From contig OZ025788.1 of the NCBI GenBank assembly GCA_964019425.1, positions 372,001 through 436,000 of the forward strand: DNA of 64,000 nucleotides. Direction: 5' to 3'. This stretch comes from Flectonema sp. DT1601. Its lineage: Eukaryota. The notes under the pieces are model-generated. The model was not told where the DNA came from and did not search any database. It was given only the letters and a program-made list of their open reading frames with translations. The stretch's first letter is position 1. Each line of letters begins with the position of its first letter. A program made the position numbers and the translations under genes. Positions 4,041 through 58,209 of this stretch are shown piece by piece.

Positions 4041-4190
4041 TATATTTTTCGCCCCGAAACCTAACCATTATTTTGTTTTGTCCTACGAACTTTTACATTT
4101 GATTATTTTGATTGACTGATAATTATTAATACAAACTGGCTGAAATAGTTTTCCACGATGTTAATACGGAATAGCAGAACAATTAATGTT
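4041..4190 (+). repeat. Decayed 3' part of ribozyme repeat family 1 joined to a 3' fragment of family 2
   Basis: CCCGAAACCTAACCATTATTTTGTTTTGTCCTACGAAC...GACTGATAATTATTAATAC matches 50420-50518. The following GGAATAGCAGAACAATT matches the family 2 tail (5037-5053, 56247-56263). Confidence 0.75.
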
Positions 4191-4940
4191 TTCACTGTCT
4201 TATTTTTCTCAACTGCACCTTTTTTAATAATCTCATAATACTAACTACCCGAAATAATGAATCAACGATTCATATAAAGGAACGGTATTAACGATTACAT
4301 GAAATTATTTTTGTGAATCCCCCACCTCATTGCCATCTACTTTTCTTAATCGCTTCGGTTATACGAAATCCCGATGAGAAATAAAATTCCCACCGTCATC
4401 TGTTTCGCACCATTAATTCTTTTTCCTTTGCATTTAACAGTTGTAAAAACGAAAAAGAATCAGCACCTATGAACCTTCTTTAGCTTTATCAGTTTAAGTC
4501 GTTTCGTGCACGAACAAGTTTCAGATTTTGACAGATACGTGTAATTAACGTTGGTATTCGGAGCCTACCTCCTTTTAATTCTGTTGTCCTCACAAATTAA
4601 TAGTCCTGTTGTCACAAAAAGCTTTTTGCTTCTTCTTGAAGCCTTCGGTGACCTTTTTTTCGATATTAATGCTTGGACACTTAGGGTGGTCATGTTCTGG
4701 GTTTTTTATTTTCATTTGTGTTATGGCGGCTTTTTGATACACGTAATTATTTCGTAAAGAACGGTTTTTCGAAATGGAATAGAAAAAAGTGTTTTTACTT
4801 AATTACTCTTTATCTCCGCTCCTCTCCTGATCATTTCTTTTTTTGATTTCGACCTATTAATAGCGAAACTATAAAAAACACAATCTCCGTGATTGGGGTC
4901 CTCTACTGGTGCGGGTCTAGACTTACGAACTAGTCAAGCC

Positions 4941-5053
4941 AATGAAGTCCCTTAGAACTTACTAAAGAAGTCATTAAAAGGGACAAGTATTATAAGACTA
5001 AGGCTCCTGAAACTACATATTCCACAAGTGTCAAATAGAATAGCAGAACAATT
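4941..5053 (+). repeat. Decayed copy of family 2 permuted hammerhead repeat
   Basis: Aligns to 53987-54067. The core is mutated (CTAAAGA for CTGATGA, GTATTA for GTAGTA), while GTCCCTT/AAGGGAC and GAAACTAC are retained. Confidence 0.85.
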
Positions 5054-5325
5054 TTTTTTTATTCTTTCAAAAACTTTTTTATTATTATTAATATCTTGAT
5101 TCAATACGCTAACTAAGCCCCATTATCGTCCTTATTCAGCCTACAATAACTTGGCTTAATTAATCTCCCTAAAGATATTTCTGAAGGGGAACAGTACTTC
5201 TATCCGCTGCCAACAGTAGCTATCTTAGTGATAAGTTACGGTTTAAAATATGCGGCAACTTTACCTGATTTCTAGTACCTCAAGAAAAAAAGAAAAAAAA
5301 TAACATGAATAATAATAATAATATA

Positions 5326-5416
5326 GGCTTTGCTGAGAGGGGCATACGCCGTGAGAAGGACAGGCCTGTCCCCCTTACTTTCTTTGCTGCTGAAGAAGGG
5401 CTGGATGTGGTCCGAT
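5326..5416 (+). repeat. Decayed, internally deleted copy of family 1 repeat
   Basis: GGACAGGCCTGTCCCCCTTACTTTCTT...GCTGAAGAAGGGCTGG...TGGTCCGA matches 50326-50398. Confidence 0.8.
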
Positions 5417-6054
5417 TTGATTGTTTTTTTTTTCTTTTCCTTTGTGATAACTCCCCGCTAATAAAGCTAAAAAAAAAAAATACCACATCTGTGGTAAGTT
5501 CCAATTTCAAAACATGCCTCGCTTTTCTGGTACCTCTTTCTTGAATAGAAAAGAAAAACAAAACCAACGAGTGAACCGGAGTCAAGTTATTACATAATTT
5601 GACAGTTTTTTTTTTTTTGTTGAACTACCGCTCTTTTTTTTTTTTTGGGTAAGTTGAAATATTATTATGGTGAAGTAGGTCACGTTTATAACCAACAGCT
5701 GAAACTAATTTATACATACCACGTCCCGAGTCTTCGGAAATAGCTACGGATTTCCAAACCATTGACCGAACCATTAATTTATTAACAATATAAGTAATCG
5801 ACCCACTCTCTGATGTATTTCATTATGACTCCTGGTTTTGGTTTCTTCACAACTATTTAAGTAATTGAATAACTCTATATCGTCACCTGCACTGAATGGT
5901 AACACAGAAGAGATATCTCAAACCTAAGAGTGTTTGATGTCGTTTGTTGACTTCTACTTATAAACTAATACTGATAGTTTGAATACTGTTGAGCATGAAT
6001 GGAAACTTGTTTTTTATTATTCATCTCCCGTAGACATACCTCAGTACCACTTAT

Positions 6055-6220
6055 TAGTTGGTATCCCTCGTTCACTGATGGTAAAAGAAATAACCTTTGC
6101 TGAGGAGGGCTGGGTTAGGGGAATGGTCCGAAGAAAAACTTCTTAAGTTTATCCCATCAGTTGTTTGTTGTCCTGCGAATTTTTGATTTTAATAATTGAA
6201 ATGACTAATTAATATTAATA
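6055..6220 (+). repeat. Decayed copy of family 1 repeat
   Basis: GTATCCCTCGTTCACTGAT...GCTGAGGAGGGCTGGGTTAGGGGAATGGTCCGAAGAAAA...TTGTTGTCCTGCGAA matches 50220-50456. The AGCCCGAAAC strand is lost. Confidence 0.8.
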
Positions 6221-7432
6221 CTGACTTAATTGTTTGAAGCTGTTTAATTTTTTTTTTACCTACCCAATGTTGGTGTTATCCGTCTACTCATATTAAGCAT
6301 TACTCAACTAACTAATCCTCAAATGGGTATTGATGCAGATGAGAAATCCAAGTCAGATCACTCAAAAGGAGAAAAGCAATTTAGTTCTTACATTTCGGAA
6401 CTAAGACGACTTTTGATGTTCCTCAAATAATGAGAACACGGAAATCATATTTCCCCCCCCCCCCCCCCCTCTTTATTTCTTGTTCTCTTTTATAATCATT
6501 TGGTAGTATTGAGCGGTGAGTACTGTTTTCGTTTGTTGAGAGGTCGATTTTCTATCGATTTTTCACAATGTTTTAGTTAAATAGGAAATTCCCGTGAGAA
6601 TTCTCGATTAAGTTCTCAATTATGGGAAGCTAAGTGGTAAAATAACCTTCTAAAAAACCAATTAACCACAGAAGGGAACAAACAGCACTCTTGTGTTACT
6701 ACTTTCATACAAACTAACATACGTGTGGTTTTTAATTAAATAATTAATAACGTATATAAGTAATTTTGAAGACCAAAACCCTTTTTTTTTTTTTTTTTAA
6801 AATGACCTTTTCTTGCTTTGTTATTCGTTGCCTGTGTTGTCATATTGTTCAGTTTTTTTTTTATATTTATAACAGGTGGCGACTGCGAAAAAGCAAAAAC
6901 GTTTTGTGTGTGTTCGTAAAGGGTTTTTCTGATTTCCGACTAGCAGCGCCAAACCCTATGCAAGTGATTCTTTAACCCCATTATACTTCACCCCCTCAGA
7001 AATTACCGAACAAGATGAAAGGCTCAATTATATTTTTATTTACTGACTATGGTGCTGTTAGTGATTGACAAAAGAGAAAATGTGAACATCTGTTTTAATA
7101 TTTCCGATTAGCGAAAATAGGTGATGATATTGTTATTATACTGCACTTATACAGGACACTCGGAACAAGTGGAATTGCGTTTTTTTTAAGTTTATTTTCT
7201 GTTATATTAATAACAGCGTGAAGGGTTCACATTTAGTATACTTTAAGTAATGTTACGTCTGTTGGGAAATGGTAGTTGATTGATCTTTATAGGTATAATG
7301 TGATTGTCAATACCTTTCTTATTTATGTTTCATCACTGGATTTATCAAGATTTAAGAACGTGACGTCGATTATTTTTATGATTACTTTCTGTAATTCATA
7401 ACTCAATTCTTAAAGCAGTGGGGACAGCTGAA

Positions 7433-9385
7433 ATGCAGCGACCACTCTGCGACTACCCGATTGGTGTTGTAGCACTTGGGTGGTGTGTACTTCATGTTGC
7501 GAAGAGGGGGCTGACACCATTCGAATCCGCAACTTCGATAGTACAACGAGGAGGATGTACAGATGACGAGGACAGTAGTTTATTACTTGCAGAGTATTAT
7601 GTCGACGAGAAGTCTTCACCAGCTGAGCGAGCAGCTTATCATCAAAAGTGGTGCGAAGACAATAAACTTTCTGAGAAAGAAGAAGAAGTTCGACGATACC
7701 TTCATTCTCTGTTGTCAGAAGAAACCATCACAGACATTCACCATCAAGACACTGCCATAATGAATAAACTCTTGCAGATAATGAAAACATTTGAAATTGA
7801 CACTCCCGACTCTGAGGCTTCCCAACTCCTATCAGAATGGTGTTTAAGTGATGATGTGATCTCTTCAACTGTTGGGAAGTTAGATATTCTCCAACAAGAG
7901 AGTGATGATAAACTTATTTATAAGACGTATGATCTCCTTGGTACCGCCCTCCACACTTCTTCCGGAGATCTAATTCGCAACTGTACGAAGTCTTTGAGAG
8001 GTGTCGATCCTCTCGTGTTTCTATTTACACGTCGTGGGTTTTCAGACTGGGCTCGTCCGCTGATTTCAACAACAGTTTTCGATCCAGCCAACACTCTGTG
8101 TAGAGTAACTTACACATCGACTGATGATGTGATTCTGTCTCCGAATCGCTCTCTTTCATTTGCGATGACTCTGTTTTCAGGAATTCTTAATGATCCAACT
8201 GCTTGTCCACTTTATCTGGCATTTGAGAACGAGCTTCCGGCTCACCTGATGAAAGTTGAAATTAATGATACGAATTGTTCAGTAATGTACATCCCTGACA
8301 GTGAAGAACTATTGGGTTCAAGTACAGCCTCACGTTTAGCGATGTCATTAGTTGGTGTTGGTGAAATGTACCACCCGAGATCTAAAGTATGCAGGTACTC
8401 AGATCGTGTTGTTGGATATTTTGGAAGAACAACACCAGCAACTCTACCAAAGGATTTACTGCTGTCTGAGAGTAGAGAAATATCAATCGCCGAGTCCTCG
8501 ACACTAACTCTAATTCATCCATTCGTATCGAGTGATGCAACGAAGAGTTCAGAGAGAGATTCCATCAATGATCAACTGAAGCACTTTTACAATTTAATCG
8601 AAGAAAACATTAAAGAGCTTCCAGCTACTGAACGTGACGTAATACGATTGGTACTGCTGCCTTCCTCAATGCGTTTCAATGGAACGAAAGATGTTTTAGA
8701 AACTACCGTTTCAACTTATAATGTAAACGGCTCACCTGCAATGAGCGATCTGATGGAGTTATTGACACTCAGTGATGTCACCGTCCTGACAGAAGTTCAT
8801 AGAGGATCTTTATCTTTGTTGCCGAGATCTTTTTTTTCTGAATTTCGTGGATCCCCTGACTACGGAATCGCTGTAGTGGTGTCAGATATTTATTCTACTT
8901 TTGTTGGATCTATTTTAGTTGGAAAAGACAGGTCAGCAATTTGTGTAAAGAGAATGGACTTATTTATTGTTGGTGTTCACTTAAATAATTCATCGGAGTC
9001 TATTCGTCTTTCTGAATTAAAACAAATATTAAATTGGATTGAAAATGATCTTTCCATCGACAAGTTTCGCCATCTAATCGTTGGGGATTTTAATTCTCTC
9101 GTTCGGTCTGATTATTCTTCTGAACAATTAATACGAATATCAAAACAGAGAAGTAGTTCTTGTTGGGAAAATATATCTTTTGATGTTTCTGACTTTCTTA
9201 TTTCAAAAGATTACGATTACATTTCTTCTAACGGAGTTCCAACTAGTAGACGACACACTGCCATAGATCACATCTGGGGGAAGCATCATTCGGCCTCTTG
9301 TAGTAGTTCTGTTCATCCATTTACTTTGTCAGATCATCGTCCTGTTAGTTGTTCCTTTAGGAAGATGGATCTCAACGGAGAGTGA
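7433..9385 (+). CDS. Protein with a C-terminal endonuclease/exonuclease/phosphatase (EEP) domain
   Basis: Motifs TYNV, LTEV, GVHL, IVGDFNS, IDHIW and SDHRPV occur in canonical EEP order. First ATG is at 7433, after an AG at 7417-7418. Confidence 0.85.
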   Translation: MQRPLCDYPIGVVALGWCVLHVAKRGLTPFESATSIVQRGGCTDDEDSSLLLAEYYVDEKSSPAERAAYHQKWCEDNKLSEKEEEVRRYLHSLLSEETITDIHHQDTAIMNKLLQIMKTFEIDTPDSEASQLLSEWCLSDDVISSTVGKLDILQQESDDKLIYKTYDLLGTALHTSSGDLIRNCTKSLRGVDPLVFLFTRRGFSDWARPLISTTVFDPANTLCRVTYTSTDDVILSPNRSLSFAMTLFSGILNDPTACPLYLAFENELPAHLMKVEINDTNCSVMYIPDSEELLGSSTASRLAMSLVGVGEMYHPRSKVCRYSDRVVGYFGRTTPATLPKDLLLSESREISIAESSTLTLIHPFVSSDATKSSERDSINDQLKHFYNLIEENIKELPATERDVIRLVLLPSSMRFNGTKDVLETTVSTYNVNGSPAMSDLMELLTLSDVTVLTEVHRGSLSLLPRSFFSEFRGSPDYGIAVVVSDIYSTFVGSILVGKDRSAICVKRMDLFIVGVHLNNSSESIRLSELKQILNWIENDLSIDKFRHLIVGDFNSLVRSDYSSEQLIRISKQRSSSCWENISFDVSDFLISKDYDYISSNGVPTSRRHTAIDHIWGKHHSASCSSSVHPFTLSDHRPVSCSFRKMDLNGE

Positions 9386-18360: not shown

Positions 18361-18540
18361 TTTTGAGTATCTACCTAACCGATACTCGGTGGTCTGAAGG
18401 ACTTGCTAACTATTATTACTAACTATTACGTAACCTTTTAGCCCGAAACCAACCATTATTTGTTTGTTGTCCTACGAATTTTTAGCATTTAATTTTTTTG
18501 ATTGACTGATGATTATTACTAACTATTAGGTAACCTAACA
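18361..18540 (+). repeat. 110-bp-satellite-related module followed directly by the 3' half of family 1 repeat
   Basis: TATCTACCTAACCGATACTCGGTGG...GACTTGCTAACTA resembles the satellite unit. AGCCCGAAACCAACCATTATT...GTCCTACGAA follows at 18440-18478. Confidence 0.75.
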
Positions 18541-23607: not shown

Positions 23608-23665
23608 CTATCTTTGTTTTTATCTGCTACGCATAACGCTGGTGTGCATTTGTCTTCCTTCCTTC

Positions 23666-43490: not shown

Positions 43491-43507
43491 TTGGTCCAAA
43501 CATACTC

Positions 43508-44008
43508 ACCTTTTTTTTTTGACTAAGTCTAACATAAAAAAAGAATCAGCAATCTCACTAAATAATTCAGTGGTTTTGGTTTCCCAGGACTCACAACTAT
43601 TTAAGTAATTGAATAACTCGATTCCGTACTGCACTGAATGCACACCCAAGCCTGAATCCGAAAGGAATTGTGGTGCAAGCTATTGTGGGGATCTGGTGGT
43701 GTTCGGACAAGTCTCCTGGAATGGGGTCACCAAAGAGGGTGAGAGTCCCGTACATCTGAGCAGCCATCCAGTCTACCTTCACAGTCAGCAAACACGAAAA
43801 AAAAGAAATGTGTATGCAGCTAAGTTAGAAACATTTAATTTTATGTAAACCTCTCGTACTAACATTACCTTTAATCACTGTATTATAACTAATGTTTGTT
43901 TTAATTAACTTTGGTACAATACAGATATTTATTTGTTCGTAACATTTCGACCCACAAAATTACTATCCAAAAGACCCAAACCCGGTACTGGGGAGCCCCC
44001 CTAACTGC
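43508..44008 (+). repeat. Duplicated non-coding segment (other copy 59302-59619; partial copy 5832-5898)
   Basis: Near-identical to 59302-59619 apart from a ~174-bp extra block at 43641-43814. Confidence 0.92.
43641..43814 (+). pseudogene. LSU (28S) rRNA D1-region fragment
   Basis: AAGTCTCCTGGAATGGGGTCACCAAAGAGGGTGAGAGTCCCGT matches the conserved eukaryotic D1 motif AAGT..CTTGGAA.AGG.....AGAGGGTGAGA.TCCCGT, preceded by CCCAAGCCTGAATCC...GAATTGTGG. Confidence 0.8.
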
Positions 44009-44027
44009 CTGTAAACACAATGTTGAG

Positions 44028-44287
44028 TGACTAACTGTACTGACTAACTGTACTGACTAACTGTACTGACTAACTGTACTGACTAACTGTACTGACTAAC
44101 TGTACTGACTAACTGTACTGACTAACTGTACTGACTAACTGTACTGACTAACTGTACTGACTAACTGTACTGACTAACTGTACTGACTAACTGTACTGAC
44201 TAACTGTACTGACTAACTGTACTGACTAACTGTACTGACTAACTGTACTGACTAACTGTACTGACTAACTGTACTGACTAACTGTAC
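44028..44287. repeat. Perfect minisatellite (TGACTAACTGTAC)x20
   Basis: 13-bp period over 260 bp, read directly. Confidence 0.98.
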
Positions 44288-45054
44288 TTGATAACTTGAA
44301 GAACTTGTTGATAACTTGAATACGAGGTTTTGTGCCGTCAGGTACGTACTGTTGCTGTGGCGAAGGTTATCCTGGCAAGGCGGTGGAGTTACAATCCTGC
44401 ACCCAGAAGATTGATTTTCCGATCATAAACAACAAGCCCTCCTTTGATTCACACCACATTCGTTCGGTCAGGGTAGGTCTTTGGGCCAATTAAGCGTCTG
44501 ACCAACGTTCCAGAGTGTCTGCCCCATATATCCCCTCTATCTCTTCCGTCCGGCTTCATCCCTGGAAGTCATTTTTGCATACAACGATTGATGCATCTTC
44601 GTTAGGGCCACTACATTACCAACGAGGTGCTTCAGTGGGTGCTTGTACAGCTGTTGCCAATGTAAGGGCAGTTAGTGCCACTGTAACACCCACCTCCATA
44701 AGAGACCTTAAACGATGTGCGGGTGGTTTGAGGCAATGATGTTGACAGTACAAGCCAGGTGGTCAAGAGACATGTGGTGCAAGAACGTCCAAAATAATCT
44801 GAGAAAAACTCTTTGTGAACTTGTCACGCGTCCCAAAGGTGTCCCCCATCAGAAGCAGGCATGTTTGTTTAGAATAAAATTGTGAGGAATTTAAAATTAC
44901 TCAACATATTTTTCAGGGGAAAAAAAAGTCTGCCTTAAATTCGGCAAGTTCGATTCCAGGTGGCGGATTTTTTAACCACAGGCCGCAAGGCACTTTTTTT
45001 GTATAGAGGTGGCGGTTTCGGAAACTTTTGTCTGGATTAGAGGTTTTCCCAAAA

Positions 45055-48393: not shown

Positions 48394-48731
48394 TCCTTTT
48401 AATAAGATTTTTATTTTATATTTTATCTCTCTCTCTCTACGCTTGCGGTGAAAAGCATATTGTAGTCTGCTCCAGTGGTGGCCTGAGATCAAGGGAGGCA
48501 CACTGGCTTACATTCGACGCAGTCTCTGCAATCCCTGATCCTGGCTTGCGTGTTGTCTAGACTTGGCTGAATTCAAAGTTGACTACAAGCCAAAGACATG
48601 GTTCTGGATATATCTTAATTAGTACCCTCTATGGTGTGGTGTATCATCTGTGCATGTCACTGGAGCCCTAGTCGATGCGGACACATTTTTTTATACAGGG
48701 GTTCGTCATAGAGGCAAGAGAGTAGAGCTAC

Positions 48732-48895
48732 GTTGCCTGTGGGGCAGCAGCGTGCACCGAAGCCAAGGATGCAGGATGGACTCCTCGACCATATCGTAAA
48801 ATAAATTAATTAAAATTAAATTTAAACGACGGTTTTAGATGCAAAAGCAGATACGGATTTTCACTTGTGGGTCTTTTCTTTGCCTCTCGCTTCGC
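48732..48895 (+). repeat. Short duplicated segment (other copy 51067-51230)
   Basis: GTTGCCTGTGGGGCAGC...CTCCTCGACC and AAACGACGGTTTTAGATGC...GTGGGTCT occur at both sites. Confidence 0.9.
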
Positions 48896-49172
48896 TCGTG
48901 AGGTAAACACACTCGAGTGGGTAAAAACCCTGAAATTCAGGCTATCTGATCTTCGTCTAGTAGTTATTAGTTTTTTCGAACGAAAAAAACTTGTGAACAA
49001 AAAAAAAAAAAAAAAATCATGTCAGGTATTCTTCGGGTTGCGTTCCATTTTTTATTCTTCTTTTTTCCCTTGTCATCTATTTTTCCCAACTGCATAAAAA
49101 GGATATTAACAAGGCATTGTGATTTAACTATCACTCATTATCTGTTTGAGAATATTTTTGGTAGTCAGTTGC

Positions 49173-49240
49173 GGAATGAGGTACCCAGAACTCACTGATG
49201 AAATCAAGGAGATAATTTAGAAAAAAATATGGAACAGCAG
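49173..49240 (+). repeat. Heavily deleted family 2 copy
   Basis: GGAATGAGGTACCCAGAACTCACTGATGAA followed by ATGGAACAGCAG, matching the head and tail of the 53985/56154 copies. Confidence 0.65.
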
Positions 49241-49416
49241 CATTATTTTCTTTTATTTTTGTTGCACCCGACACAAGTCAGTTAGCAGAGCTATTCGAAT
49301 AAACGATGCGTCTTTCTTGTCGAATGCTTTCGCAGAAGGTCGTCTTCCCACGATCTAAGAATTTCACCTCTGACGTCGACCAGTGTTGCTGTCATGTGAT
49401 CAACAGATCATAATAA

Positions 49417-49960
49417 GTTAGACTGCAATCAAATTCCCTCTCCTTTTATTTCATGAGAGTGAGATCCCCAGGGAGTTAGGAAAAAAAAAGAAGGGATCTC
49501 ATTAATTATTGTTATTCGTTAGTTCGTTCGTTTTTTTTCTTCTTTTTTTTTTTCCCCGCACTGAAAATATCTAATTAGAGTTGTTACGTAAACGATGCGG
49601 ATTCAGAGGATGAGAAGATTTTTTAGTGTGTATGTGTGTGTTTTTTTTGCGCAAAAATAATCTCATTCATGAGCAGGTGTTCGACCGATTTTTTTCTTTT
49701 GGTTTAAGTCTTCCGACTTTTTTAACTCAAGAAATCAACGAATTCGGAAAAACTGCAGGCTCCTTCGCTAATTGTTTCGTAGCTTCTTATTAGGTAGCAT
49801 TTCTTCTTGTGCATCTTCCTCTCCTTATTTTTCTGCCGAACGTTTTTAGCTTTGTTTTCCTCCTCCTTTTTGTACAAGACCTCAGAGGAAGTATCAAATT
49901 ACCTTTCCAAGGGGCTATATTGGCGAAATTAGTTCTTGTCATGCGTGCTTTTTGAATTGA
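49417..49960 (+). repeat. ~540-bp non-coding duplication (other copy 51296-51852)
   Basis: Near-identical from GTTAGACTGCAATCAAATTCC to GTCATGCGTGCTTTTTGAATT. Confidence 0.95.
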
Positions 49961-50216
49961 ATAATTTTGACTGTTATGTTTTTTTTTCTCTTTTTCTGAT
50001 TAAATTTTATCAAAAAAAGAAAAAAAAAACAAACTTTTCTGATCAAATTGCAACTGTCCTACGAAAATTTTGCTTGCCGAAAGAAATGTCTTCGTACGTC
50101 TGGCGGTGCCATGAGACTCGGACACATCTATAGAATACCGTCTGAGCATGAGTGGAAACCTTTTTATTTTTTTATCATTCATTCTCCATAAACATAACTC
50201 AGCCCCACTAATTTTG

Positions 50217-50523
50217 TTAGTATCCCGCGTTCACTGATATTTACATATGGGGACTGTGTTAAATAGTAAAGGAAATAACCATGTTGACGTGGTCCCTTGG
50301 CTGAGAACGGAAAACGCGATGAGTAGGACAGGCCTGACACCGCAGTGTCCCCCCTTGCTTTCTTCGCTGAAGAGGGCTGGGTAAGGGGAATGGTCCGAAG
50401 AAAGATTTTTTAATTTTAGCCCGAAACCAACCATTATTGGTTTGTTGTCCTACGAACTTTTGCATTCGATTGAATTTTCCCGCCCTCTCCCCTTCTTTTG
50501 ACTGATAATTATTAATACTAACT
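50217..50523 (+). mobile_element. Family 1 dispersed structured repeat (retrozyme-like, ~300 bp), best-preserved copy A
   Basis: Near-identical to 57933-58207, with decayed copies at 4.0, 5.3, 6.1 and 18.4 kb. It is non-coding and contains a hammerhead core. Confidence 0.75.
50323..50453 (+). ncRNA. Non-circularly permuted hammerhead ribozyme, family 1
   Basis: CUGAAGA 50367-73, GUC 50393-95 and GAAA 50423-26. Stems I (8 bp), II (7 bp) and III (4 bp) all pair flush against the core. Confidence 0.8.
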
Positions 50524-50647
50524 TTTCTGATCAAATTTTATCAAAAAAAAAAAAAACAATATTCCTCTCTTTTATTGATGATCTGTATAAGTTCCTCTTA
50601 ATAAAATTTTTATTTTATATCTGCTTGATTGCGTTGAGACCAGGGAA

Positions 50648-50947
50648 TTGGTAAAGCAAACCATGAGATTTCCGACACCAGATGATGAGCTCTCTCTGGA
50701 TATGTTCTTTCGAACTGAATGGCAGCCTTTCACGTTGTTATTGATCAGCAAGCTTGATAATCATCTTAAAGAGTTATCTGACAATCCGTTGTTGTTGAAG
50801 TTTCAGGGTATTTTTATGAGGAGGAAACTAATCGCGCACATCGAAAGGAAAATAAGTTTCTCGTTACTGGGTTCTGATGTGAAGGAGCATGTTATAGAAC
50901 TTATTGATAATTCATATAAAGTTATCGATTTGACGAACTTTCTATAG
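50648..50947 (+). other. Short ORF of uncertain status (possible gene fragment)
   Basis: 99-codon ORF with protein-like composition and no recognisable motif. Confidence 0.25.
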
Positions 50948-52260
50948 CAGATGCGCTTATCAATCCTGACTGGTCGGAGCCCAAGCTTTCTAAGTTTCTT
51001 TCTCGGTTAAGTCGCCTCCTGTGACGAAATCCCCTAGGTAGATAAAGAACGTCTCTTTCCTCTAGTGTTGCCTGTGGGGCAGCAGCGTGCACCGAAGCCA
51101 AGGATGCAGGATGGACTCCTCGACCGGGTGTACATTTTCCCTTCGGAGCCTCCTATCGTAAAATAAAACGACGGTTTTAGATGCAAAAGCAGATACGGAT
51201 TTTCACTTGTGGGTCTATTCTTTACCTCACGAGCGAAGCTGGCAACCGTGGGTTGGCCGAACCTTTTTTAGTTTAACAGTTTTAAATTACTTTTTGTTAG
51301 ACTGCAATCAAATTCCCTCTCTTTTTATTTCATGAGAGTGAGATCCCCAGGGAGTTAGGAAAAAAAAGAAGAAAAAAAAAAAAAAAAGAAGGGATCTCAT
51401 TTATTATTGTTATTTGTTGGTTCGTTCGTTTTTTTTTTTTTTCCCCCGCACTGAAAATATCTAATTAGAGTTGTTACGTAAACGAAGCGGATTCAGAGGA
51501 TGAGAAGATTTTTTAGTGTGTATGTGTGTGTGTTTTTTTGCGCAAAAATAATCTCATTCATGAGCAGGTGTTCGACCGATTTTTTTCTTTTTTCTTTTGG
51601 TTTAAGTCTTCTGACTTTTTTGACTCAAGAAATCAACGAATTCGGAAAAACTGCAGGCTCCTTCGCTAATTGTTTCGTAGCTTCTTATTAGCATTTCTTC
51701 TTGTGCATCTTCCTCTCCTTATTTTTCTGCGGAACGTTTTTAGTTTTGTTTTCCTCCTCCTTTTTGTACAAGACCTCAGAGGAAGTATCAAATTACCTTT
51801 CCAAGGGGCTATAATGGCGAAATTAGTTCTTGTCATGCGTGCTTTTTGAATTTTTTGATCCGAGAGGAAACAAAAAAAAAAAAAAGTGAGCTTCAAGCTT
51901 CAATAGTAGGATATTTTTTATAAATAAAATAAACTTCTAGGAGGAGTTCTCTGATAAACTCTGTGAAGATATATTTTTTTATTCTTTTTTTTTGCAACCT
52001 CTCTATAACAAGAAGGAAAGAGTTCTTATCTTCACACTGATCAGTGATCATCCTACTGGATCCACGAATGACCCCACAGGAAACTATATTAACTAATACA
52101 ACTGTTGCAGTAACAACAAACGGCAATGGTGGTAAATGATGGGAAAAACGACCTCCACGAGCAGTTCTTAAAAGTGAACTTGAGAAGGTCGATATGGTAG
52201 GGTGTTTTTATGACTAAAAGTAAACTTCTAAAAGGAGTTCTATGATAAACTTTGTGAGAT

Positions 52261-52368
52261 CACAAGCCAGTTATCCCTGTGGTATTTTTTGTATCACCTT
52301 GGCTTCGTCCCTCGCGAACATGAAGCAAGCTTTAGACCTTGCTTTCACATCGTCGGTATTGAATATCG
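52261..52368 (-). pseudogene. LSU (28S) rRNA domain V fragment
   Basis: Reverse complement ends in TACCACAGGGATAACTGGCTTGTG, a highly conserved LSU stretch, preceded by diverged GTGAAAGC and AAGGTG motifs in the expected order. Confidence 0.85.
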
Positions 52369-53207
52369 TAAAATGGTGCAGCAAGGCAATTACTGGGCAA
52401 AGTTAGAACTGGTGGACGCAACTTTTGGCATCCAAACTGATTCTTGGCTTTTTATTTTAATTCGATGGACAAAAAAAAGAAGACGCGTCCGGAATTGAGC
52501 CTGGTCTGGAGCACGGTACCGTACCGTTCGACCATCCCTGCTCTGAAACACATCCCAACCACTGGGGATCTCGATGCGTTCCGTGTAAAGTTTGGGGGGC
52601 CCCTCTAACCATTTTGAATTTTGTAATAACGCCCCATTTTGGAACTATTTATGTAGCAAAGGTTAGTTTGTCCATATTTCTTTTTTTGCAACCTTTGTAA
52701 GAATAAAAAGAAAAAAAAACGTTGCTGTGATTTTTATCTTGAGCGGATTCGCAATGACTCACAATGTCCTTTCTTTTTGTTTTTTCTTGTTCTTTTTCCT
52801 CCCTTATTTTTAACGACGTTTATTATAAATAACGTTTTTCTTTATTTTTTGTATAAACTTTATATTGTGACTCACATCACCCTGGTTGCGAAATGCATTG
52901 ATATTCCGGATGAGCGCAATTTCCTGCCATCCGTTCATCACTGCTTTTTCTGATGCCAATCTCAATGCGTGTCATAATATACACAAGCGAACTTTGAGTG
53001 TCATCTTTTTTAATTTTCTTAAAGAGATGTCTCAGAGATTCCTGTGAGATACATACATAGAGAATATGAATTCATTATTGTTACGTGAATCATAATATTA
53101 TAGAAGATTTTTGTACCAATTAATAAATAAATATTCGGATTGAATTCCAACTGAAAAATAAAAGTTTGCGGGTTTGCGGTGTGTCATATTACGAAGTATT
53201 GAGAATT

Positions 53208-53908
53208 CACAGGTGGTTAACCGTTCCACCCTGTCGTGTCTATCTAACCAGTACTCGATGGTATGTCGGGCTCGCTAACTAACTCAGGGATTACATAATG
53301 TTGTAGTATTGGGGACTCACAGGTGGTTAACCGTTCCACCCTATCGTGTCTATCTAACCAGTACTCGATGGTATGTCGGGCTCGCTAACTAACTCAGGGA
53401 TTACATAATGTTGTAGTATTGGGGACTCACAGGTGGTTAACCGTTCCACCCTATCGTGTCTATCTAACCAGTACTCGATGGTATGTCGGGCTCGCTAACT
53501 AACTCAGGGATTACATAATGTTGTAGTATTGGGGACTCACAGGTGGTTAACCGTTCCACCCTATCGTGTCTATCTAACCAGTACTCGATGGTATGTCGGG
53601 CTCGCTAACTAACTCAGGGATTACATAATGTTGTAGTATTGGGGACTCACAGGTGGTTAACCGTTCCACCCTATCGTGTCTATCTAACCAGTACTCGATG
53701 GTATGTCGGGCTCGCTAACTAACTCAGGGATTACATAATGTTGTAGTATTGGGGACTCACAGGTGGTTAACCGTTCCACCCTATCGTGTCTATCTAACCA
53801 GTACTCGATGGTATGTCGGGCTCGCTAACTAACTCAGGGATTACATAATGTTGTAGTATTGGGGACTCACAGGTGGTTAACCGTTCCACCCTGTCGTGTC
53901 TATCTAAC
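53208..53908. repeat. 110-bp tandem satellite, ~6.4 copies
   Basis: AGGTGGTTAA recurs at 53211, 53321, 53431, 53541, 53651, 53761 and 53871. Units are almost identical and have no variable spacers. Confidence 0.98.
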
Positions 53909-53983
53909 GAATAGCTCCGATGGACATTAAGAAATCAGTTCTTTTGAAATGGACCAATTGATAAATCCGATTTATTAATAAAC

Positions 53984-54067
53984 TGGAATGAAGTCCCTTA
54001 GAACTTACTGATGAATGCCTAAGAGGGACAAGTAGTATAAGATTAAGGCTCCTGAAACTACATATTC
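53984..54067 (+). ncRNA. Non-circularly permuted hammerhead ribozyme, family 2 (core intact)
   Basis: CUGAUGA 54008-14, GUA 54035-37 and GAAA 54054-57. Stem I is CUUA/UAAG, stem III is ACUAC/GUAGU, and stem II is bulged. Confidence 0.72.
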
Positions 54068-54681
54068 TATCACCCTTTGATGTTAGGAAACTGCAGAAAT
54101 GAATACTTTTCTTTTACTGATCTCTACTTCTTATTAAATAAAATAATAAATAAAAAATATTCTCGCTTTTCTATACCAAATTTAATGATACTAACTAACA
54201 TTCTATTTTCATAATTACGTCTCTACTACTTGTTCCTTTGTTGGTTCTAGTTACGGTGAGAGTAGCGTACAAGTGAAGATATTGCTAATGTAGTTTAGTA
54301 ATCTTTCGCCCAATGTTATTAGTTAGTTCTTTTTCTGCTAGTAGTACATATTCTTATTGGTACAGTTTCCAATGGAAAACAATCCCGAATGTAGCGACCG
54401 GTATTCTTAACTCTGTCAACAGAAAACATGAATTAATAAATTCTGACCTTCTTGGTTTGATTTCTTTTGTGTTTCGGTCATAGTTACTGGTGTCGTCTGC
54501 GATTCCTCTTCGAACACTTCTACGGGGTACAGCGTCTGCACCATTTCCGTCAGGAACACCCGCCGTTGACGTCGCACGTGACGCTTATTAGCAGCATATA
54601 TTGTTGCAGAACTTGATGGAGAACTGTTTTTTTTTTGGAACAAAAATAATGGAAGTATAATCTCACTTCTTTTTACAGTAA

Positions 54682-55752
54682 ATGAGAAATGTTTGGCTGT
54701 TGGCTGTCTCAGTTGCTATAGTAGTGTTGCTGAATGGAGTGTCGAATGTGAGTTGGGGTTTGGAAGACATTACACAGCATGTGTTTCCAAGCATCGATCT
54801 AAACATTACACAGAATGAGTTGGCAAGTACCGATCAACCAGTACCAGAATCAGCAGCATTGGATGATGGAAGTTGCCGTAACATTGACAGTTTGATGCCT
54901 GGTTCTTTTGAGAACGGAAGTTGGGTTTCTGAAAACTGCGAATTCAGACCACTGAATATTTCAGAAGTTCAAAAGTGCCTTGAAAATAAAATAGTTCTCG
55001 TAGTTGGTGATTCTCAACTAAGATCCTTGACCACGAGTGCTGCTACAGCTTTTGGATTGTCTCGCATGAAAAAAGGACATCATGATAAACCTATTAAGTT
55101 AGTAGCGCCGGGGAGTAAAAAATCACCACTACAGTTCTTCTGGAAGCCGTCCGTTAACTTTCGAGGGTTTAAGAATTATTATCCTCCCAGAAAGAATCAA
55201 CTGGCAGCGACAGATCATTTAATATTTAATGACGCAATGTCAGATATTGGTCGTTATGGCTGTGGGGTTCAAGTCTTCTATACTCGTTTATTAAAACAGA
55301 TGAGGCTGTACAAGGCAGCGATCCCATCCGAGGCTGTATTTTCACTATTTGTTCTTCACTGGATTTGGTTAGATCCAACAATTTGTAGTGAGCTTTGTCG
55401 CAAATGTAACAGCCCTGCTAAACTTGCTGCCTTCAGAGAAGCAACACTGTTAGCAGCATCATGTAGTGGAATAAGTCTCATTGATACTTCGAAAGTAACT
55501 CGATCAATGGGAATGAAGCATTCTTATGATGGTGTCCATCTTAGTGGTAGTGCTCTTCGTTTACAACTCGACATTGTGGCTCATAACATCTGCCGCCCAC
55601 GTGATGTTCCTTTCACTTCTTCAAATCCGATTCGCTGTTCAGACGAAGCAGTAATTCGTAAAAAGTGGGAAACTATCCCAGAGGCAGAAACAAGCTGTGC
55701 GACCATTCCAATAGATTGCTCACCTGAAGGGGGTGAATTTGGGGGGATTTGA
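54682..55752 (+). CDS. SGNH/PC-esterase-like (TBL/Cas1p-type) acyl-esterase or O-acetyltransferase with an N-terminal anchor
   Basis: VLVVGDSQLR and YDGVHL catalytic motifs, the W..C......CL pre-domain and an N-terminal hydrophobic segment. Confidence 0.88.
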   Translation: MRNVWLLAVSVAIVVLLNGVSNVSWGLEDITQHVFPSIDLNITQNELASTDQPVPESAALDDGSCRNIDSLMPGSFENGSWVSENCEFRPLNISEVQKCLENKIVLVVGDSQLRSLTTSAATAFGLSRMKKGHHDKPIKLVAPGSKKSPLQFFWKPSVNFRGFKNYYPPRKNQLAATDHLIFNDAMSDIGRYGCGVQVFYTRLLKQMRLYKAAIPSEAVFSLFVLHWIWLDPTICSELCRKCNSPAKLAAFREATLLAASCSGISLIDTSKVTRSMGMKHSYDGVHLSGSALRLQLDIVAHNICRPRDVPFTSSNPIRCSDEAVIRKKWETIPEAETSCATIPIDCSPEGGEFGGI

Positions 55753-56150
55753 GAGGACGTAATTCAACCAAGTGGTTAGTGAATTAAGAATCTTATTGAC
55801 TTTATGTCACTTTTCATAAGTCATCTAACTAATTGATAACTCGTGTGCTATGATGTATTATGACCTTGGTAACTTTCTTTTTTTTTGTGTGTGATTTGCT
55901 ACCGACGCGTTTGGCACGATGCTTCTTATTAGATATTCTTTTTTAATAAATTATTTATGATTTTCTAGATTATAATATCGTCAAAAAAAGAAAAAAAAAA
56001 AAATAAAAAAAAAAATAAAAAAATAAAAAGGAAAACCTAGTTAGTTAGCCAATCAAAAGTAAATATATGTTAGCCAGTTCTGACGAGTTTCGATGGACAT
56101 TAAATCAGTTCTTTTGAAATTGACATTGGTTAATCTGATTTATCAAAAAA

Positions 56151-56263
56151 ACTGGAGTGAAGTCCCAGGAACTTACTGATGAAGGCCTACGAGGGACAAG
56201 TAGTATAAGATTAAGGCTCCTGGAACTATGTATTCCGGTGTTTTATGGAACAGCAGAACAATT
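56151..56263 (+). ncRNA. Family 2 permuted hammerhead copy with GGAA instead of GAAA (probably inactive)
   Basis: CUGAUGA 56176-82 and the same helices as 53984-54067. Outer stem is ACUGGAGUG/UAUUCCGGU. Confidence 0.65.
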
Positions 56264-57895
56264 GTATTTTTATTCTCACTAATAGCTGGAAAGTGGGGAC
56301 CACAACCGTACTCTTTGGAGGTTTATCGGATCCCTGTTCATATTGCAATGAGTAGCATTGTTAATTGGATGGATGGAAAAGGTTACCAACTTAGAGTTGT
56401 GAAAATGTGTTAAGGATATGTAATCCTACGCCAGTCAAACGTCGTTTTATTTTATTAATTTTTCATCATTATCATCTTCTGGGATCAGTCTGCTTGCATC
56501 CCTTCTCCGTAGCAAACAAACTGGATCCTTCTCTGAACTCCTTTATCTCCTTATTCTCCTCATGAAATAAACACTTGAGGCAGAGTCTTCGGACCAATGC
56601 GGTCACTGCCGCTCTGGACAGCCCGTCGTTTCCCTAACGATGGTAGGAATGTGCTTCGTACGCTTAAGAGTGCGTGACTATTTCATGCTCTTCTGACGTC
56701 CTTAACCATGTTTCTCGTATTCCTTGTCAGGCTTCAACCAAAAGTGAAAAAAGAAAGGCAAACATTGAAGTGAAAACAACAATGAACAAAGAAGGCGGTT
56801 GCACCCATGAGTGCAACCAGAAAAAACAAAAAAAAATAAAAAAGAACCAAAAATTTCGAATCTCTGGTTTTTCTGGTATGACCTGAATTATGACCACTGT
56901 TTTGGTGGAATTAGAGATTTTCCTAAAAGAGAAAAAAAACTCTTTCAATCATTTACAAGGCGCTTCAGGAACAACTATAATCTTCAACCTTTAGAAATCA
57001 ATATTTTGTTTTAGCAGTGTGCTCCGAGCTACGAACTAACAAATACAAGCTTCGTTTTTTAAAAGAAATACGATAACCGACGACAAAAAAAAAAAAAACA
57101 GAAATTTAAATCAGTAGTGACGAACTGCAAGGCGTAAAGCTCTCAACTTGTAGAACGTAACCATCAGATTCGACAGTGATTTCTGGATACTTGTACTAAC
57201 ATTATTTTAGTTATGTACGAGTGTAATACATTGTCTGACTTTTCAGCGACTATCCTACAATGAAGCTTAATCTTCCTTTTTTTTCCAGTATAACCTTATT
57301 ACTCATGTAGTATTAAAAGGTTTATTACTGTTTCTACATTGTCAAACTATCACCCACGCTCAACCTGCCCCCCAAATTACCACAATTGACAACGTCTTCT
57401 GTTCAATAAGACGGAAAAAAAAAAAAAAAAAAAAAAAAAAACCCTTTTCTTTTTTCTAAACGTAATTATTTTTTGATTAACAGCTACGAATATTTTTTTT
57501 TAGTCAAGTACTTGATATTAATTTTGTTTTTAGTACCTAAAGCTGTTACTGTTTTTTACATTGTCAAAGTCTCATCCCCCAGATTCTTTCGTATTCGTAT
57601 TAAATCCCAGATGCAGCAGGGCATGGGATGCTCAACCTGTAGTGCGTGGTCCCCGGGTCAATTTGACTTGACAGCATTTCTTTCTGTGGTAGTTTATTTG
57701 AAGCATGCGATCTGGACAGAATCCAGTAATGATAATTCATGTCCAATCTGTTGCGTGTTAACCTTAATTTATTCATCCAAGTCCCCTAGGGGGATTTTGA
57801 TACGATACGAAAAGATCCTTGTAGATCCTTGCGTATCGTATTAAGTCCCCCCCTTCTTGCGTATGTTTCGTTCACAATATCTGATTTAACCCGAC

Positions 57896-58209
57896 AACTA
57901 ACTAACTAATACTAACTCTGGTCACTACCAAGGGGGACTGTGTTAAATGGTAAAATAAATAACCATGTTGACGTGGTCCCTTGGCTGAGAAGGGAAAACG
58001 CGATGAGTAGGACAGGCCTGACACCGCAGTGTCTCCCTTGCTTTCTTCGCTGAAGAGGGCTGGGTAAGGGGAATGGTCCGAAGAAAGATTTTTTAATTTT
58101 AGCCCGAAACCAACCATTATTGGTTTGTTGTCCTACGAACTTTTGCATTCGATTGAATTTTCCCACCCTCTCCCCTTCTTTTGACTGATAACCATTAATA
58201 GTAACTAAC
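57896..58209 (+). mobile_element. Family 1 dispersed structured repeat, copy B, flanked by TAAC-rich tracts
   Basis: Near-identical to 50249-50523. AACTAACTAACTAATACTAACT lies upstream and GTAACTAAC downstream. Confidence 0.75.
58007..58136 (+). ncRNA. Non-circularly permuted hammerhead ribozyme, family 1 copy B
   Basis: CUGAAGA 58050-56, GUC 58076-78 and AGCCC-GAAAC 58101-10, with a 9-bp stem I CUUUCUUCG/CGAAGAAAG. Confidence 0.8.

What the first reader, a model, noticed from the sequence alone, without database searches (positions are those of the whole stretch)
4041..58209. Modular multi-ribozyme (retrozyme-like) element scattered through intergenic DNA
Seen: at least six family 1 pieces (4.0, 5.3, 6.1, 18.4, 50.2, 57.9 kb) and five family 2 pieces (4.1, 4.9, 49.2, 54.0, 56.2 kb), all on the + strand like the genes. 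They are physically linked. At 4.0-4.2 kb a family 1 end runs into a family 2 tail through ATTAATACAAACTGG (compare ATTAATAAACTGG at 53974). At 18.4 kb a satellite-like module precedes family 1, and at 53.9 kb the satellite runs into family 2. TAAC-rich tracts recur at the ends. Inference: a non-autonomous, non-coding retroelement built from ribozyme modules. Sense-oriented self-cleaving sites between genes could also cut a polycistronic pre-mRNA. I could not identify a reverse transcriptase gene in the window.
Basis: partly seen in the sequence, partly recalled or inferred. Interest (0 to 1): 0.8.

Follow-up and report, generated by a model that had tools for sequence, protein, structure and literature searches.

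The report
Sense-only intergenic repeat mosaic, not ribozymes
The flagged pieces are real copies of a short non-coding repeat that always points the same way as the genes in the long gaps of a likely diplonemid protist's gene cluster, but they match no known self-cutting RNA and are most likely ordinary decaying repeat fragments.

Summary
The repeats are real. Family 1 has 6 of 6 claimed pieces. Family 2 has 3 solid pieces, 1 marginal (4.1 kb) and 1 unsupported (49.2 kb). A 110-nt satellite has related single units. Every copy lies on the + strand: 3,823 direct versus 22 inverted repeated 14-mers.

The families are related. The 5' part of family 2, the 3' part of family 1 and the 3' half of the satellite look homologous. 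Junctions carry CTAACTA-type tracts.

The repeats are not only local. Spurious ORFs read across family 1 match ORFs on 4 other large contigs. One further ORF reads family 1 and family 2 together in the same order and direction.

The ribozyme reading fails. Rfam gives no ribozyme match, even in lax scans of the repeats. Folding is no better than shuffled sequence, and there is no covariation. A hammerhead-like core occurs in only 2 near-identical copies, lacks a proper helix I, appears in about 10-32% of shuffled windows, and is deleted in most other copies.

No reverse transcriptase, target-site duplications or poly(A) tails were found.

Best reading: degenerate fragments of a composite, non-coding, SINE/SIDER-like dispersed repeat in a polycistronic gene cluster. 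Modest interest.

The parts
50133..50241 (+). Module X, which precedes family 1 here. A second copy lies at 5982-6079.
   Evidence: nhmmer E 2.2e-11. The X-Y junction is also read in the external ORF P0010.
50242..50523 (+). Family 1 reference copy: Y 50242-50361 plus Z 50362-50523. The hammerhead-like letters are CTGAAGA 50367-50373, GAAA 50423-50426 and GUC ending at 50449.
   Evidence: 95.4% identical over 282 nt to 57926-58206. Descriptor hits. No Rfam hit.
57926..58209 (+). Family 1 copy (Y-Z) with unrelated flanks. The same hammerhead-like letters start at 58050.
   Evidence: Flanks read. No target-site duplication seen by eye.
5299..5404 (+). Family 1 copy. It holds the 3' two-thirds of Y and the start of Z, and lacks GAAA and helix III.
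6096..6228 (+). Family 1 Z copy joined to X, with most of Y missing. The GAAA and the 5' half of helix III are deleted.
18367..18530 (+). Satellite-like piece (18367-18412), then a CTAACTA tract, then a family 1 Z copy (18433-18530). There is no CTGANGA.
   Evidence: The core 18436-18494 is 91.5% identical to 50414-50471.
4013..4238 (+). Z-like copy (4046-4142) running through ATTAATACAAACTGG into a family 2 tail (4164-4238, marginal). The family 2 core is absent.
4923..5120 (+). Family 2 copy lacking the Z-like 5' part. CTGATGA has changed to CTAAAGA. It ends near CGCTAACTAAG.
53913..54204 (+). Family 2 reference copy, entered directly from the last satellite unit. It ends at ATACTAACTAAC (54189).
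   Evidence: No Rfam ribozyme hit. Fold z -0.01.
56059..56300 (+). Family 2 copy. CTGAAAC has changed to CTGGAAC.
   Evidence: 85% identical over 156 nt to 53913-54067. Upstream extension to 56059 is shared with P0012.
49165..49260 (+). Claimed family 2 piece. It shows only two short similar stretches.
   Evidence: Not detected. Aligned.
53085..53923 (+). 110-nt satellite array. Single units lie at 42905-43013 and 17468-17531.
   Evidence: No Rfam hit on three units. Fold z +0.17.
50496..50625 (+). Module W, which overlaps the end of Z. Other copies lie at 48271-48420, 49960-50029 and 63892-63998.
43513..43650 (+). Module V. Other copies lie at 59307-59436 and 5832-5904.
43651..43814 (+). Inserted fragment of 28S rRNA with an A-rich 3' end. 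It is absent from the paralogous spot at 59437.
   Evidence: LSU_rRNA_eukarya positions 157-256, 29.3 bits, E 1.5e-5 in a 231-nt search. Alignment.
44028..44288 (+). Tandem array of a 13-nt unit (TGACTAACTGTAC) with 20 copies. It is the same CTAAC-type motif as at the module borders.

Best explanation
Families 1 and 2 and the 110-nt satellite are related, non-coding, degenerate repeats that lie only in the gene direction in the long spacers of a one-directional gene cluster. They are most likely fragments of one composite non-autonomous dispersed repeat (X-Y-Z, a linker, then family 2; roughly 0.7 kb), and they are predicted not to cut themselves.

Shown:
- The copies exist, and all repeats share one strand.
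- The modules share homologous segments.
- Family 1 occurs on other contigs.
- Family 1 and family 2 are joined at an outside locus.
- No known ribozyme signature is present.

Inferred:
- The element spread by copy-and-insert events, possibly reverse transcription by a partner element encoded elsewhere. A retroposed 28S rRNA piece in the same spacers makes this plausible.
- Copies were then multiplied and shuffled locally by tandem and segmental duplication, unequal recombination and deletion.
- The uniform direction comes from duplication in place. It may also reflect insertion next to the CTAAC-rich ends of earlier copies, or loss of antisense copies inside a transcription unit.
- The copies are carried passively in the primary transcript.
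For: Repeats and strand.

Shared backbone: the family 2 5' part aligns with the Z 3' part and the satellite 3' half (mean column identity 53%).

Copies are cut at different points:
- Z only: 4.0 and 18.4 kb.
- Y without most of Z: 5.3 kb.
- X joined to Z: 6.0 kb.
- Family 2 with and without its 5' part or its core.

Spread beyond this region:
- The ORF at 57902-58117(-) matches 4 ORFs on 4 contigs of 172-844 kb. Each has different indels.
- P0010 repeats the X-Y-Z order.
- P0012 carries family 2 (residues 2-57) and family 1 (residues 98-155) in one reading run.

Local duplication is rife in the window:
- 45051-48393 ~ 60600-64000 (96%).
- 49417-49958 ~ 51296-51852.
- 43306-44009 ~ 54587-59620, in pieces.
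- The order family 2, Y, V is colinear at 4.9/5.3/5.8 kb and 56.1/57.9/59.3 kb.

Retroposition is active in these spacers: a 28S fragment with an A-rich end is present in one paralogue only.

No catalytic RNA.

Context: the Diplonema papillatum genome paper reports 52% repeats, about 10,000 dispersed motifs many of unknown origin, about 3,600 scattered 28S pieces, unidirectional clusters and spacers over 10 kb (PMC10161547, sections 8 and 9 read).
Against: - I found none of the usual insertion marks. The two best family 1 copies have no target-site duplication by eye. No module ends in a poly(A) tail.
- The window holds no partner element.
- Module order is not fixed. Z is preceded by X, by Y or by a satellite-like piece. 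Family 2 follows family 1 in P0012 but precedes it by 1.6 kb at 56-58 kb. Homology of the Z end continues into module W. This reticulate pattern fits recombination as well as transposition.
- The copy number in the genome is unknown, because no whole genome was held.
- The outside ORFs have no context, and their organism is not given.
- A 59-nt core of Z is 91.5% conserved between copies whose flanks are much more diverged. That could mean constraint.
- Two copies do carry all 13 core hammerhead letters with a GUC site.
- Family 2 and the satellite were found outside the window only through P0012, and the satellite not at all.
Confidence: 0.6

Rival explanations
1. Family 1, and perhaps family 2 and the satellite, encode self-cleaving hammerhead-type ribozymes. 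The element is a retrozyme-like retroelement whose sense-oriented sites also cut the polycistronic pre-mRNA.
For: At 50367 and 58050 the letters CTGAAGA are followed by an 8-bp helix II (5 Watson-Crick and 3 G-U pairs, 33-nt loop). GAAAC follows, then an irregular hairpin, then GUC. Family 2 contains CTGATGA and CTGAAAC. The copies are sense-oriented and lie between genes.
Against: - No hammerhead or other ribozyme model of Rfam matches, even at E<=10 on 221-331-nt stretches.
- Helix I has only 5 of 7 in-register pairs, with mismatches at 1.2 and 1.4.
- A descriptor loose enough to accept the site finds at least one such site in 32% of 200 dinucleotide shuffles, or 10.5% when helix I must have >=5 of 7 pairs.
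- The local minimum-energy fold locks CUGAAGA into a 9-bp hairpin, z -0.31.
- The core is complete in 2 of 6 window copies. Among the 4 outside ORFs, 3 have deletions in the GAAA or helix III region.
- Covariation is 0.075 against 0.071 in shuffles.
- In family 2 no helix II abuts the core, and CTGATGA or CTGAAAC is mutated in 2 of 3 solid copies.
- The satellite has no CTGANGA.
Confidence: 0.05
2. The modules are domesticated cis-acting RNA elements, in the manner of Leishmania SIDERs. Carried in the sense strand of long 3' UTRs or spacers, they would set mRNA stability, translation or the choice of polyadenylation and trans-splicing sites. The CTAAC/TACTAAC tracts would act as branch-point-like signals.
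For: - The orientation lock is complete.
- A 59-nt Z core is kept at 91.5% between otherwise diverged copies.
- TACTAAC occurs 16 times on + and 5 on -; CTAACTA 20 on + and 4 on -.
- The host is a euglenozoan-type cluster, where control is expected to be post-transcriptional (PMC10161547 section 9).
- There is a SIDER precedent (PMC2323293, abstract and section 7).
Against: - The modules show no fixed distance to stop or start codons.
- The acceptor regions just upstream of 15 start codons show polypyrimidine-AG but only one TACTAAC.
- Most copies are truncated or internally deleted at different points.
- Orientation is equally explained by duplication in place.
- No RNA data could be had.
Confidence: 0.15
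3. The pieces are nothing mobile. They are leftovers of repeated local tandem and segmental duplication of spacer DNA, and any spread is by recombination only.
For: All repeats are direct. Several large local duplications exist, with colinear module order between 4.9-5.9 kb and 56.1-59.4 kb. No insertion marks were found. The Diplonema genome paper describes tandem repetition of gene-adjacent segments (PMC10161547, passage from section 7).
Against: Family 1 is read on 4 other contigs of 172-844 kb, with different flanks at the same left border. A family 1 plus family 2 composite exists in a further ORF. The 282-nt unit at 50.2 and 57.9 kb is 95% identical, with unrelated flanks on both sides.
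Confidence: 0.12
4. The modules are pieces of cellular or organellar RNA genes or DNA scattered through the nuclear genome. Candidates are lineage-specific rRNA expansion segments, rDNA spacer, or mitochondrial chromosome constant regions.
For: A true 28S fragment sits in the same spacer. The Diplonema genome paper reports about 3,600 28S pieces and more than 1,400 mitochondrial segments, some in tandem arrays (PMC10161547 section 8).
Against: Lax Rfam scans of family 1, family 2 and the satellite give no rRNA match, whereas the same kind of scan found the 28S piece. Random insertions of such pieces should fall in both directions.
Confidence: 0.08

Closest known systems
Retrozymes: the plant LTR type (PMC4918200, abstract read) and the animal non-LTR type with type I hammerheads in short tandem repeats (PMC7229834, abstract read)
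   Same: They are non-coding and non-autonomous. They are repeated, partly in tandem (the 110-nt satellite), and have heterogeneous sequence.
   Different: The defining hammerhead is not demonstrable. There is no Rfam match and no conservation, and a core-like motif appears in only 2 copies. The tandem unit (the satellite) has no hammerhead core at all. No terminal repeats each carry a ribozyme. No circular RNA evidence was obtainable.
SIDER1/SIDER2 degenerate retroposons of Leishmania (PMC2323293, abstract and section 7 read; PMC2943621 and PMC2689281, search listing only)
   Same: They are short, degenerate, non-coding repeats in a euglenozoan with polycistronic gene clusters. They sit between coding regions in the sense direction. 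No active partner lies nearby.
   Different: The SIDER hallmarks were not found: no A-rich 3' end and no roughly 13-bp target-site duplications. The upstream T-rich motif was not examined. The 79-bp signature could not be compared. The ends here are CTAAC-type tracts. Function is untested.
Dispersed repeats and scattered 28S rRNA pieces of the Diplonema papillatum nuclear genome (PMC10161547, sections 8 and 9 read)
   Same: The genomic setting is the same: unidirectional clusters, long repeat-rich spacers, dispersed motifs of no obvious origin and tandem amplification of gene-adjacent segments. One 28S piece is present in the window.
   Different: The paper's main text names no family resembling these modules. 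Its supplementary repeat tables were not consulted. Whether the window is from that species is not known. The best outside protein match was 87% identical.
Type I hammerhead ribozyme (Rfam Hammerhead_1; name recalled)
   Same: Two copies carry CUGANGA, a G-C closed helix II, GAAA, an A-U/C-G closed helix III and a GUC triplet in the right order.
   Different: Helix I is not formed in register, helix III is bulged and the helix II loop is 33 nt. No covariance-model score was obtained. The motif is not kept in other copies.

Membership tests
Hammerhead ribozyme | Catalytic core letters CUGANGA ... GAAA ... NUH in the right order, with helices II and III abutting the core | tested here: inconclusive
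   The core is present at 50367-50449 and 58050-58132 only, which is 2 of 6 window copies. A matching descriptor hits 32% of 200 shuffled windows. Family 2 has the letters but no abutting helix II. The satellite lacks CTGANGA.
Hammerhead ribozyme | Helix I formed directly after the cleavage site | tested here: not met
   There are 5 of 7 in-register pairs, with mismatches at the second and fourth pair. Across copies, 54.8% of cells pair in helix I.
Hammerhead ribozyme | Match to the curated covariance models | tested here: not met
   No hammerhead family appears at the gathering score, at E<=5 on the window, or at E<=10 on 50230-50540, 53900-54120 and 53195-53525.
Hammerhead ribozyme | Core and helices conserved, with compensatory changes, among copies | tested here: not met
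   Covariation is 0.075 against 0.071 in shuffles, and 180 of 500 shuffles reach it. The core region is deleted in 4 of 6 window copies and in 3 of the 4 outside ORFs.
Hammerhead ribozyme | Self-cleavage | not testable with these tools
   No RNA run was listed. This needs a bench assay.
Retrozyme | A hammerhead in each terminal repeat (plants) or in each unit of a short tandem repeat (animals) | tested here: not met
   There are no terminal repeats around family 1 or family 2. The only tandem unit, the satellite, has no hammerhead core or Rfam hit.
Retrozyme | Non-coding and non-autonomous | tested here: met
   No Pfam family of mobile-element proteins was found in 77 spacer frames of at least 70 aa. 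The frames across the repeats differ by indels between copies.
Retrozyme | Circular RNA products | not testable with these tools
   No sequencing run was listed for 48400-58300.
SINE / SIDER-like non-LTR retroposon | Dispersed copies on different chromosomes or contigs | tested here: met
   For family 1, there are 4 ORFs on 4 contigs of 172-844 kb, and P0012 joins family 1 to family 2. Family 2 alone and the satellite were not shown.
SINE / SIDER-like non-LTR retroposon | A-rich 3' end | tested here: not met
   Module ends carry TACTAAC/CTAACTA-type tracts, not poly(A). Only the 28S insert has an A-rich end.
SINE / SIDER-like non-LTR retroposon | Target-site duplications | tested here: not met
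   None was seen by eye at 50242/50523 or 57926/58209. Old copies would have lost them.
SINE / SIDER-like non-LTR retroposon | 5' truncation with a common 3' end | tested here: inconclusive
   Three of four family 2 copies with a tail (4.1, 4.9 and 54.0 kb) have different 5' extents and end near ATAC(G)CTAACTA. However, family 1 copies without family 2 also exist.
SINE / SIDER-like non-LTR retroposon | 79-bp 5' signature of trypanosomatid retroposons | not tested
Box C/D snoRNA (considered because of CTGATGA ... CTGA in family 2) | Conserved C and D boxes brought together by a terminal stem | tested here: not met
   The C box is CTAAAGA at 4.9 kb and the D box is CTGG at 56.2 kb. The flanks are not complementary. 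No snoRNA family match falls on the modules above noise.

The most novel reading that the evidence does not exclude
A diplonemid counterpart of Leishmania SIDERs. This would be a composite, CTAAC-punctuated, strictly sense-oriented non-coding retroposon (X-Y-Z, linker, family 2) that colonises the spacers of polycistronic clusters. New copies would insert into the tails of older ones. It would be retained because its conserved Z core or its branch-point-like tracts steer processing or decay of the long primary transcript. Master copies might still carry a working, unusually built type I hammerhead.
Probability: 0.1. Interest if true: 0.6.

Novelty: new member of a known kind. Interest (0 to 1): 0.27.

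Why it matters
The repeat content of diplonemid genomes is large and almost undescribed at the family level. The published D. papillatum paper leaves non-coding elements for later (PMC10161547, section 8).

A defined composite element with a strict sense orientation inside transcription units would be a useful handle. It could show how repeats spread and are tolerated in genomes that transcribe polycistronically. It could also show whether diplonemids, like Leishmania, recycle such repeats for post-transcriptional control.

For the scan itself, the lesson is negative. CUGAUGA and GAAA letters inside AT-rich repeats are not evidence for ribozymes.

Tried and rejected
- **Sequencing runs.** A search for runs holding 48400-58300 listed none, so no RNA holder was listed. 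Expression, RNA ends and circles could not be examined.
- **Whole genome.** None is held for this window.
- **Collection scans.** Exact-pattern scans for the Z core and the family 2 core found 0 stretches in metagenome contigs. The Z core found 0 in prokaryote genome contigs.
- **Earlier findings of this scan.** Nothing exists for this genome or these sequences.
- **Family 2 frame in the word-indexed protein search.** No candidate. The full HMMER search then found one protein, P0012.
- **tRNA-derived SINE idea.** There are 0 tRNA genes or tRNA-like hits.
- **snoRNA idea for family 2.** Rejected: the boxes are not conserved and there is no terminal stem.
- **Spliced-leader relic idea.** The 15-nt 3' end of the kinetoplastid mini-exon, quoted in PMC11613528, gives 8 matches at up to 3 mismatches against 7.1 expected. 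None lies in the modules.
- **TACTAAC as a trans-splicing branch point.** Only 1 of 15 regions upstream of start codons has it. The apparent TACTGAC excess (25 against 2) comes mostly from the 13-nt tandem array.
- **Partner element in the window.** None was found. The only endonuclease/exonuclease/phosphatase domain (7418-9385) is at the C-terminus of a 655-aa protein with no reverse transcriptase and no solved relative.
- **HDV-like fold.** I looked for it in family 1 only by eye and through Rfam's HDV-type families. This is a weak test for that class.

Full report
**What the window is.** The window has 34-44% G+C. All 20 reading frames of 150 aa or more but one lie on the + strand. The exception is a minus-strand frame inside a + strand gene.

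Recognisable genes include a RhoGEF, a PPP-type phosphatase, a GRDP-like protein, an endonuclease/exonuclease/phosphatase-domain protein and a Brix protein split over two frames. Short polypyrimidine-AG stretches precede the start codons.

The phosphatase finds relatives only among EukProt transcriptome proteins. The best is 87% identical. One carries the label 'Rhum_', which I read from recall as the diplonemid Rhynchopus humris.

The layout matches what the Diplonema papillatum genome paper describes: one-directional clusters, some spacers over 10 kb, 52% repeats and scattered 28S pieces (PMC10161547, sections 8 and 9 read). I therefore treat the window as part of a polycistronic gene cluster of a diplonemid-like euglenozoan. 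That is an inference.

Self-comparison gave 42 matches at E<1e-3, all direct. I split the longest copy at 50.1-50.6 kb into four modules: X (50133-50241), Y (50242-50361), Z (50362-50523) and W (50496-50625).

It also recovered three of the five family 2 places.
- The 4.1 kb family 2 tail is marginal: E 0.03 and 0.048.
- The 49.2 kb piece is not statistically detectable.

The 110-nt satellite has 6.5 units at 99% match. Its single relatives at 42.9, 17.5 and 18.4 kb are real. So are the quoted junction strings.

Further small + strand-only families exist:
- V at 5.8, 43.5 and 59.3 kb.
- W at 48.3, 50.0, 50.5 and 63.9 kb.
- Two short motifs at 57.3-60.7 kb.

The named modules cover 14% of the five long spacers. 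None lies in the short spacers.

**Orientation.** Every non-low-complexity repeat is direct. Minus-strand matches between spacers are poly(A)/poly(T) only. Direct repeated 14-mers number 3,823 and inverted ones 22. The inverted ones are chance matches plus one small local hairpin inversion.

**The families are related and mosaic.** The 5' part of family 2 aligns with the 3' part of Z and with the 3' half of the satellite unit (about 53% mean column identity, so a weak but consistent relation). The piece at 4.0-4.25 kb is a Z-like segment joined to a family 2 tail, with the family 2 core missing.

Z is preceded by different modules at different places:
- By Y at 50.2 and 57.9 kb.
- By X, with most of Y missing, at 6.0 kb.
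- By a satellite-like piece at 18.4 and 4.0 kb.

The end of Z continues into W at 50.5 kb, and W also occurs alone. Module borders carry TACTAAC/CTAACTA-type tracts: CTAACTA occurs 20 times on + and 4 on -. A 13-nt unit with the same motif is amplified 20-fold at 44.0 kb.

**Local duplication versus spread.** The right half of the window is built from local duplications:
- 45051-48393 ~ 60600-64000 (96%).
- 43306-43471 ~ 54587-54751.
- 43512-44009 ~ 59305-59620.
- 48732-49958 ~ 51067-51852.

The order family 2, Y, V is colinear between 4.9-5.9 kb and 56.1-59.4 kb. Part of the family structure is therefore segmental.

Family 1 is not only local, however. A spurious minus-strand reading frame across Y-Z (57902-58117) matched four ORFs on four other contigs of 172-844 kb. 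Each has its own indels and frame changes, as expected of non-coding DNA copies.
- P0010 repeats the X-Y-Z order.
- P0011 breaks off within Y, close to where the 5.3 kb copy starts.
- To the left of the Y start (GGGGACTGTG) the copies have at least four unrelated flanks, so this is a real unit border.

A full HMMER search with the family 2 frame found one 169-aa ORF, P0012. It reads family 2 (residues 2-57), about 40 unrelated residues, and then family 1 (residues 98-155). On the element's + strand this is Y-Z, a linker of roughly 100 nt, then family 2. These outside ORFs come without context or organism names.

**Ribozymes: not supported.** The evidence is as follows.
- Rfam gave no match at gathering scores.
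- It gave no ribozyme at E<=5 on the whole window.
- It gave none in lax scans of family 1, family 2, three satellite units, 3990-6260 and 56280-59320.
- The same kind of lax scan did pick up a 100-nt 28S fragment, so the method can see short structured pieces.
- Fold energies are ordinary: z -1.27 for family 1, -0.01 for family 2 and +0.17 for a satellite dimer.
- The family 2 consensus fold is a single 5-bp stem with no compensatory change.

At 50367 and 58050 the order is CTGAAGA, an 8-bp helix II with a 33-nt loop, GAAAC, a bulged hairpin and then GUC. Several points count against it:
- Helix I has only 5 of 7 in-register pairs.
- A descriptor that accepts the site hits at least once in 32% of 200 shuffled windows, or 10.5% when helix I must have >=5 of 7 pairs.
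- The local minimum-energy fold buries the core in another hairpin, z -0.31.
- Only the two 95%-identical copies have it. The copies at 4.0, 5.3, 6.1 and 18.4 kb lack CTGANGA or GAAA.
- Three of the four outside ORFs have deletions exactly in the GAAA or helix III region.
- Pair counts equal those of shuffles.

A real hammerhead family keeps its core best, and here the core region is the part most often lost. Rfam's coverage of HDV-like ribozymes is thin, so that class is excluded less firmly.

**Retroelement: unproven but plausible.** No reverse transcriptase, endonuclease or transposase remnant occurs in 77 spacer frames. The best family 1 copies show no flanking duplications. Module ends are CTAAC-type tracts, not poly(A).

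Two observations favour copy-and-insert spread:
- Three of four family 2 copies with a tail have different 5' extents and end near ATAC(G)CTAACTA.
- A 28S rRNA fragment (43683-43785, model positions 157-256, 29.3 bits, E 1.5e-5) lies in a ~165-nt insertion with an A-rich end. That insertion is absent from the paralogous copy at 59.4 kb. Reverse-transcription-type insertion in the sense direction has therefore happened in these very spacers.

**Most likely mechanism.** The pieces are decaying fragments of a composite, non-coding, non-autonomous dispersed repeat. They were multiplied further by local duplication and scrambled by recombination between their shared segments.

The uniform direction follows from duplication in place. 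It may also follow from insertion next to the oriented CTAAC tails of earlier copies, or from removal of antisense copies inside a transcription unit. These last steps are inferred. I put this explanation at 0.6.

The rivals, with my confidences:
- A SIDER-like cis-acting role: 0.15.
- Purely local duplication: 0.12, already contradicted for family 1.
- RNA-gene or organelle fragments: 0.08.
- True hammerhead retrozymes: 0.05.

**Comparison with known systems.** The element works most like SINE/SIDER-type degenerate retroposons, but it fails or could not be put through their membership tests (A-rich end, flanking duplications, 79-bp signature). It fails the defining retrozyme test, which is a demonstrable hammerhead in each repeat (PMC4918200 and PMC7229834, abstracts read). 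It fits the 'dispersed repeats of no obvious origin' of the Diplonema genome paper. I did not open that paper's supplementary repeat tables, which might already list it.

**Verdict.** It is a new member of a known kind and of modest interest. The strict sense orientation, the CTAAC punctuation and the conserved 59-nt Z core are the points worth a genome-wide follow-up.

Noticed in passing
window 43651-43814 (28S match 43683-43785): A fragment of the 5' domain of 28S rRNA with an A-rich 3' end is inserted in the sense direction. It is absent from the paralogous segment at about 59437. It looks like a retroposed rRNA piece of the kind reported for Diplonema papillatum.
   Followed up: yes
window 45051-48393 and 60600-64000: A segmental duplication (96%) carries two paralogous genes for a signal-peptide, Pro/Thr-repeat, multi-pass membrane protein (45350-47656 and 60899-63253). 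The genes differ by two extra 24-nt repeat units in the second copy.
   Followed up: partly
window 43306-43471: This is an orphan copy (91%) of the upstream region and first ~70 nt of the gene at 54682-55752, followed directly by module V. The rest of the gene and about 4.5 kb appear to have been deleted from this paralogue.
   Followed up: partly
window 44028-44288: A perfect tandem array of 20 copies of the 13-nt unit TGACTAACTGTAC. It is absent from the paralogous segment at 59.6 kb.
   Followed up: partly
window 33510-34130 and 34348-34785: A Brix-domain gene is split over two reading frames about 220 nt apart. This is probably an intron, as expected for a diplonemid.
   Followed up: no
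window 45139, 57358, 57630, 58999, 60688; and 57581-57605, 57823-57846, 58602-58625: There are two more short motif families, both on the + strand only. One is ...CAGGGyATrrGGnGCTCAACCT..., which forms a small hairpin. The other is AGATyCTTkCGT..CGTATTAArT.
   Followed up: partly
window 428-487 and many others: The sense strand carries very long homopolymer runs in the spacers. T runs reach 60 nt in the first 24 kb. A runs of 12-27 nt dominate from 26 kb on.
   Followed up: no
window 48889-48907 versus 51221-51239: A small palindromic segment (CGCTTCGCTCGTGAGG) is inverted between the two copies of a local duplication.
   Followed up: no
window 7418-9385: A 655-aa protein has a C-terminal endonuclease/exonuclease/phosphatase domain (Pfam E 9e-11) and no solved relative. 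It carries no reverse transcriptase, so it is probably a cellular enzyme and not a mobile-element protein.
   Followed up: partly
window 50591-50944: A 118-aa + strand frame lies just after the X-Y-Z-W block, with no Pfam match. It may be a small gene.
   Followed up: no
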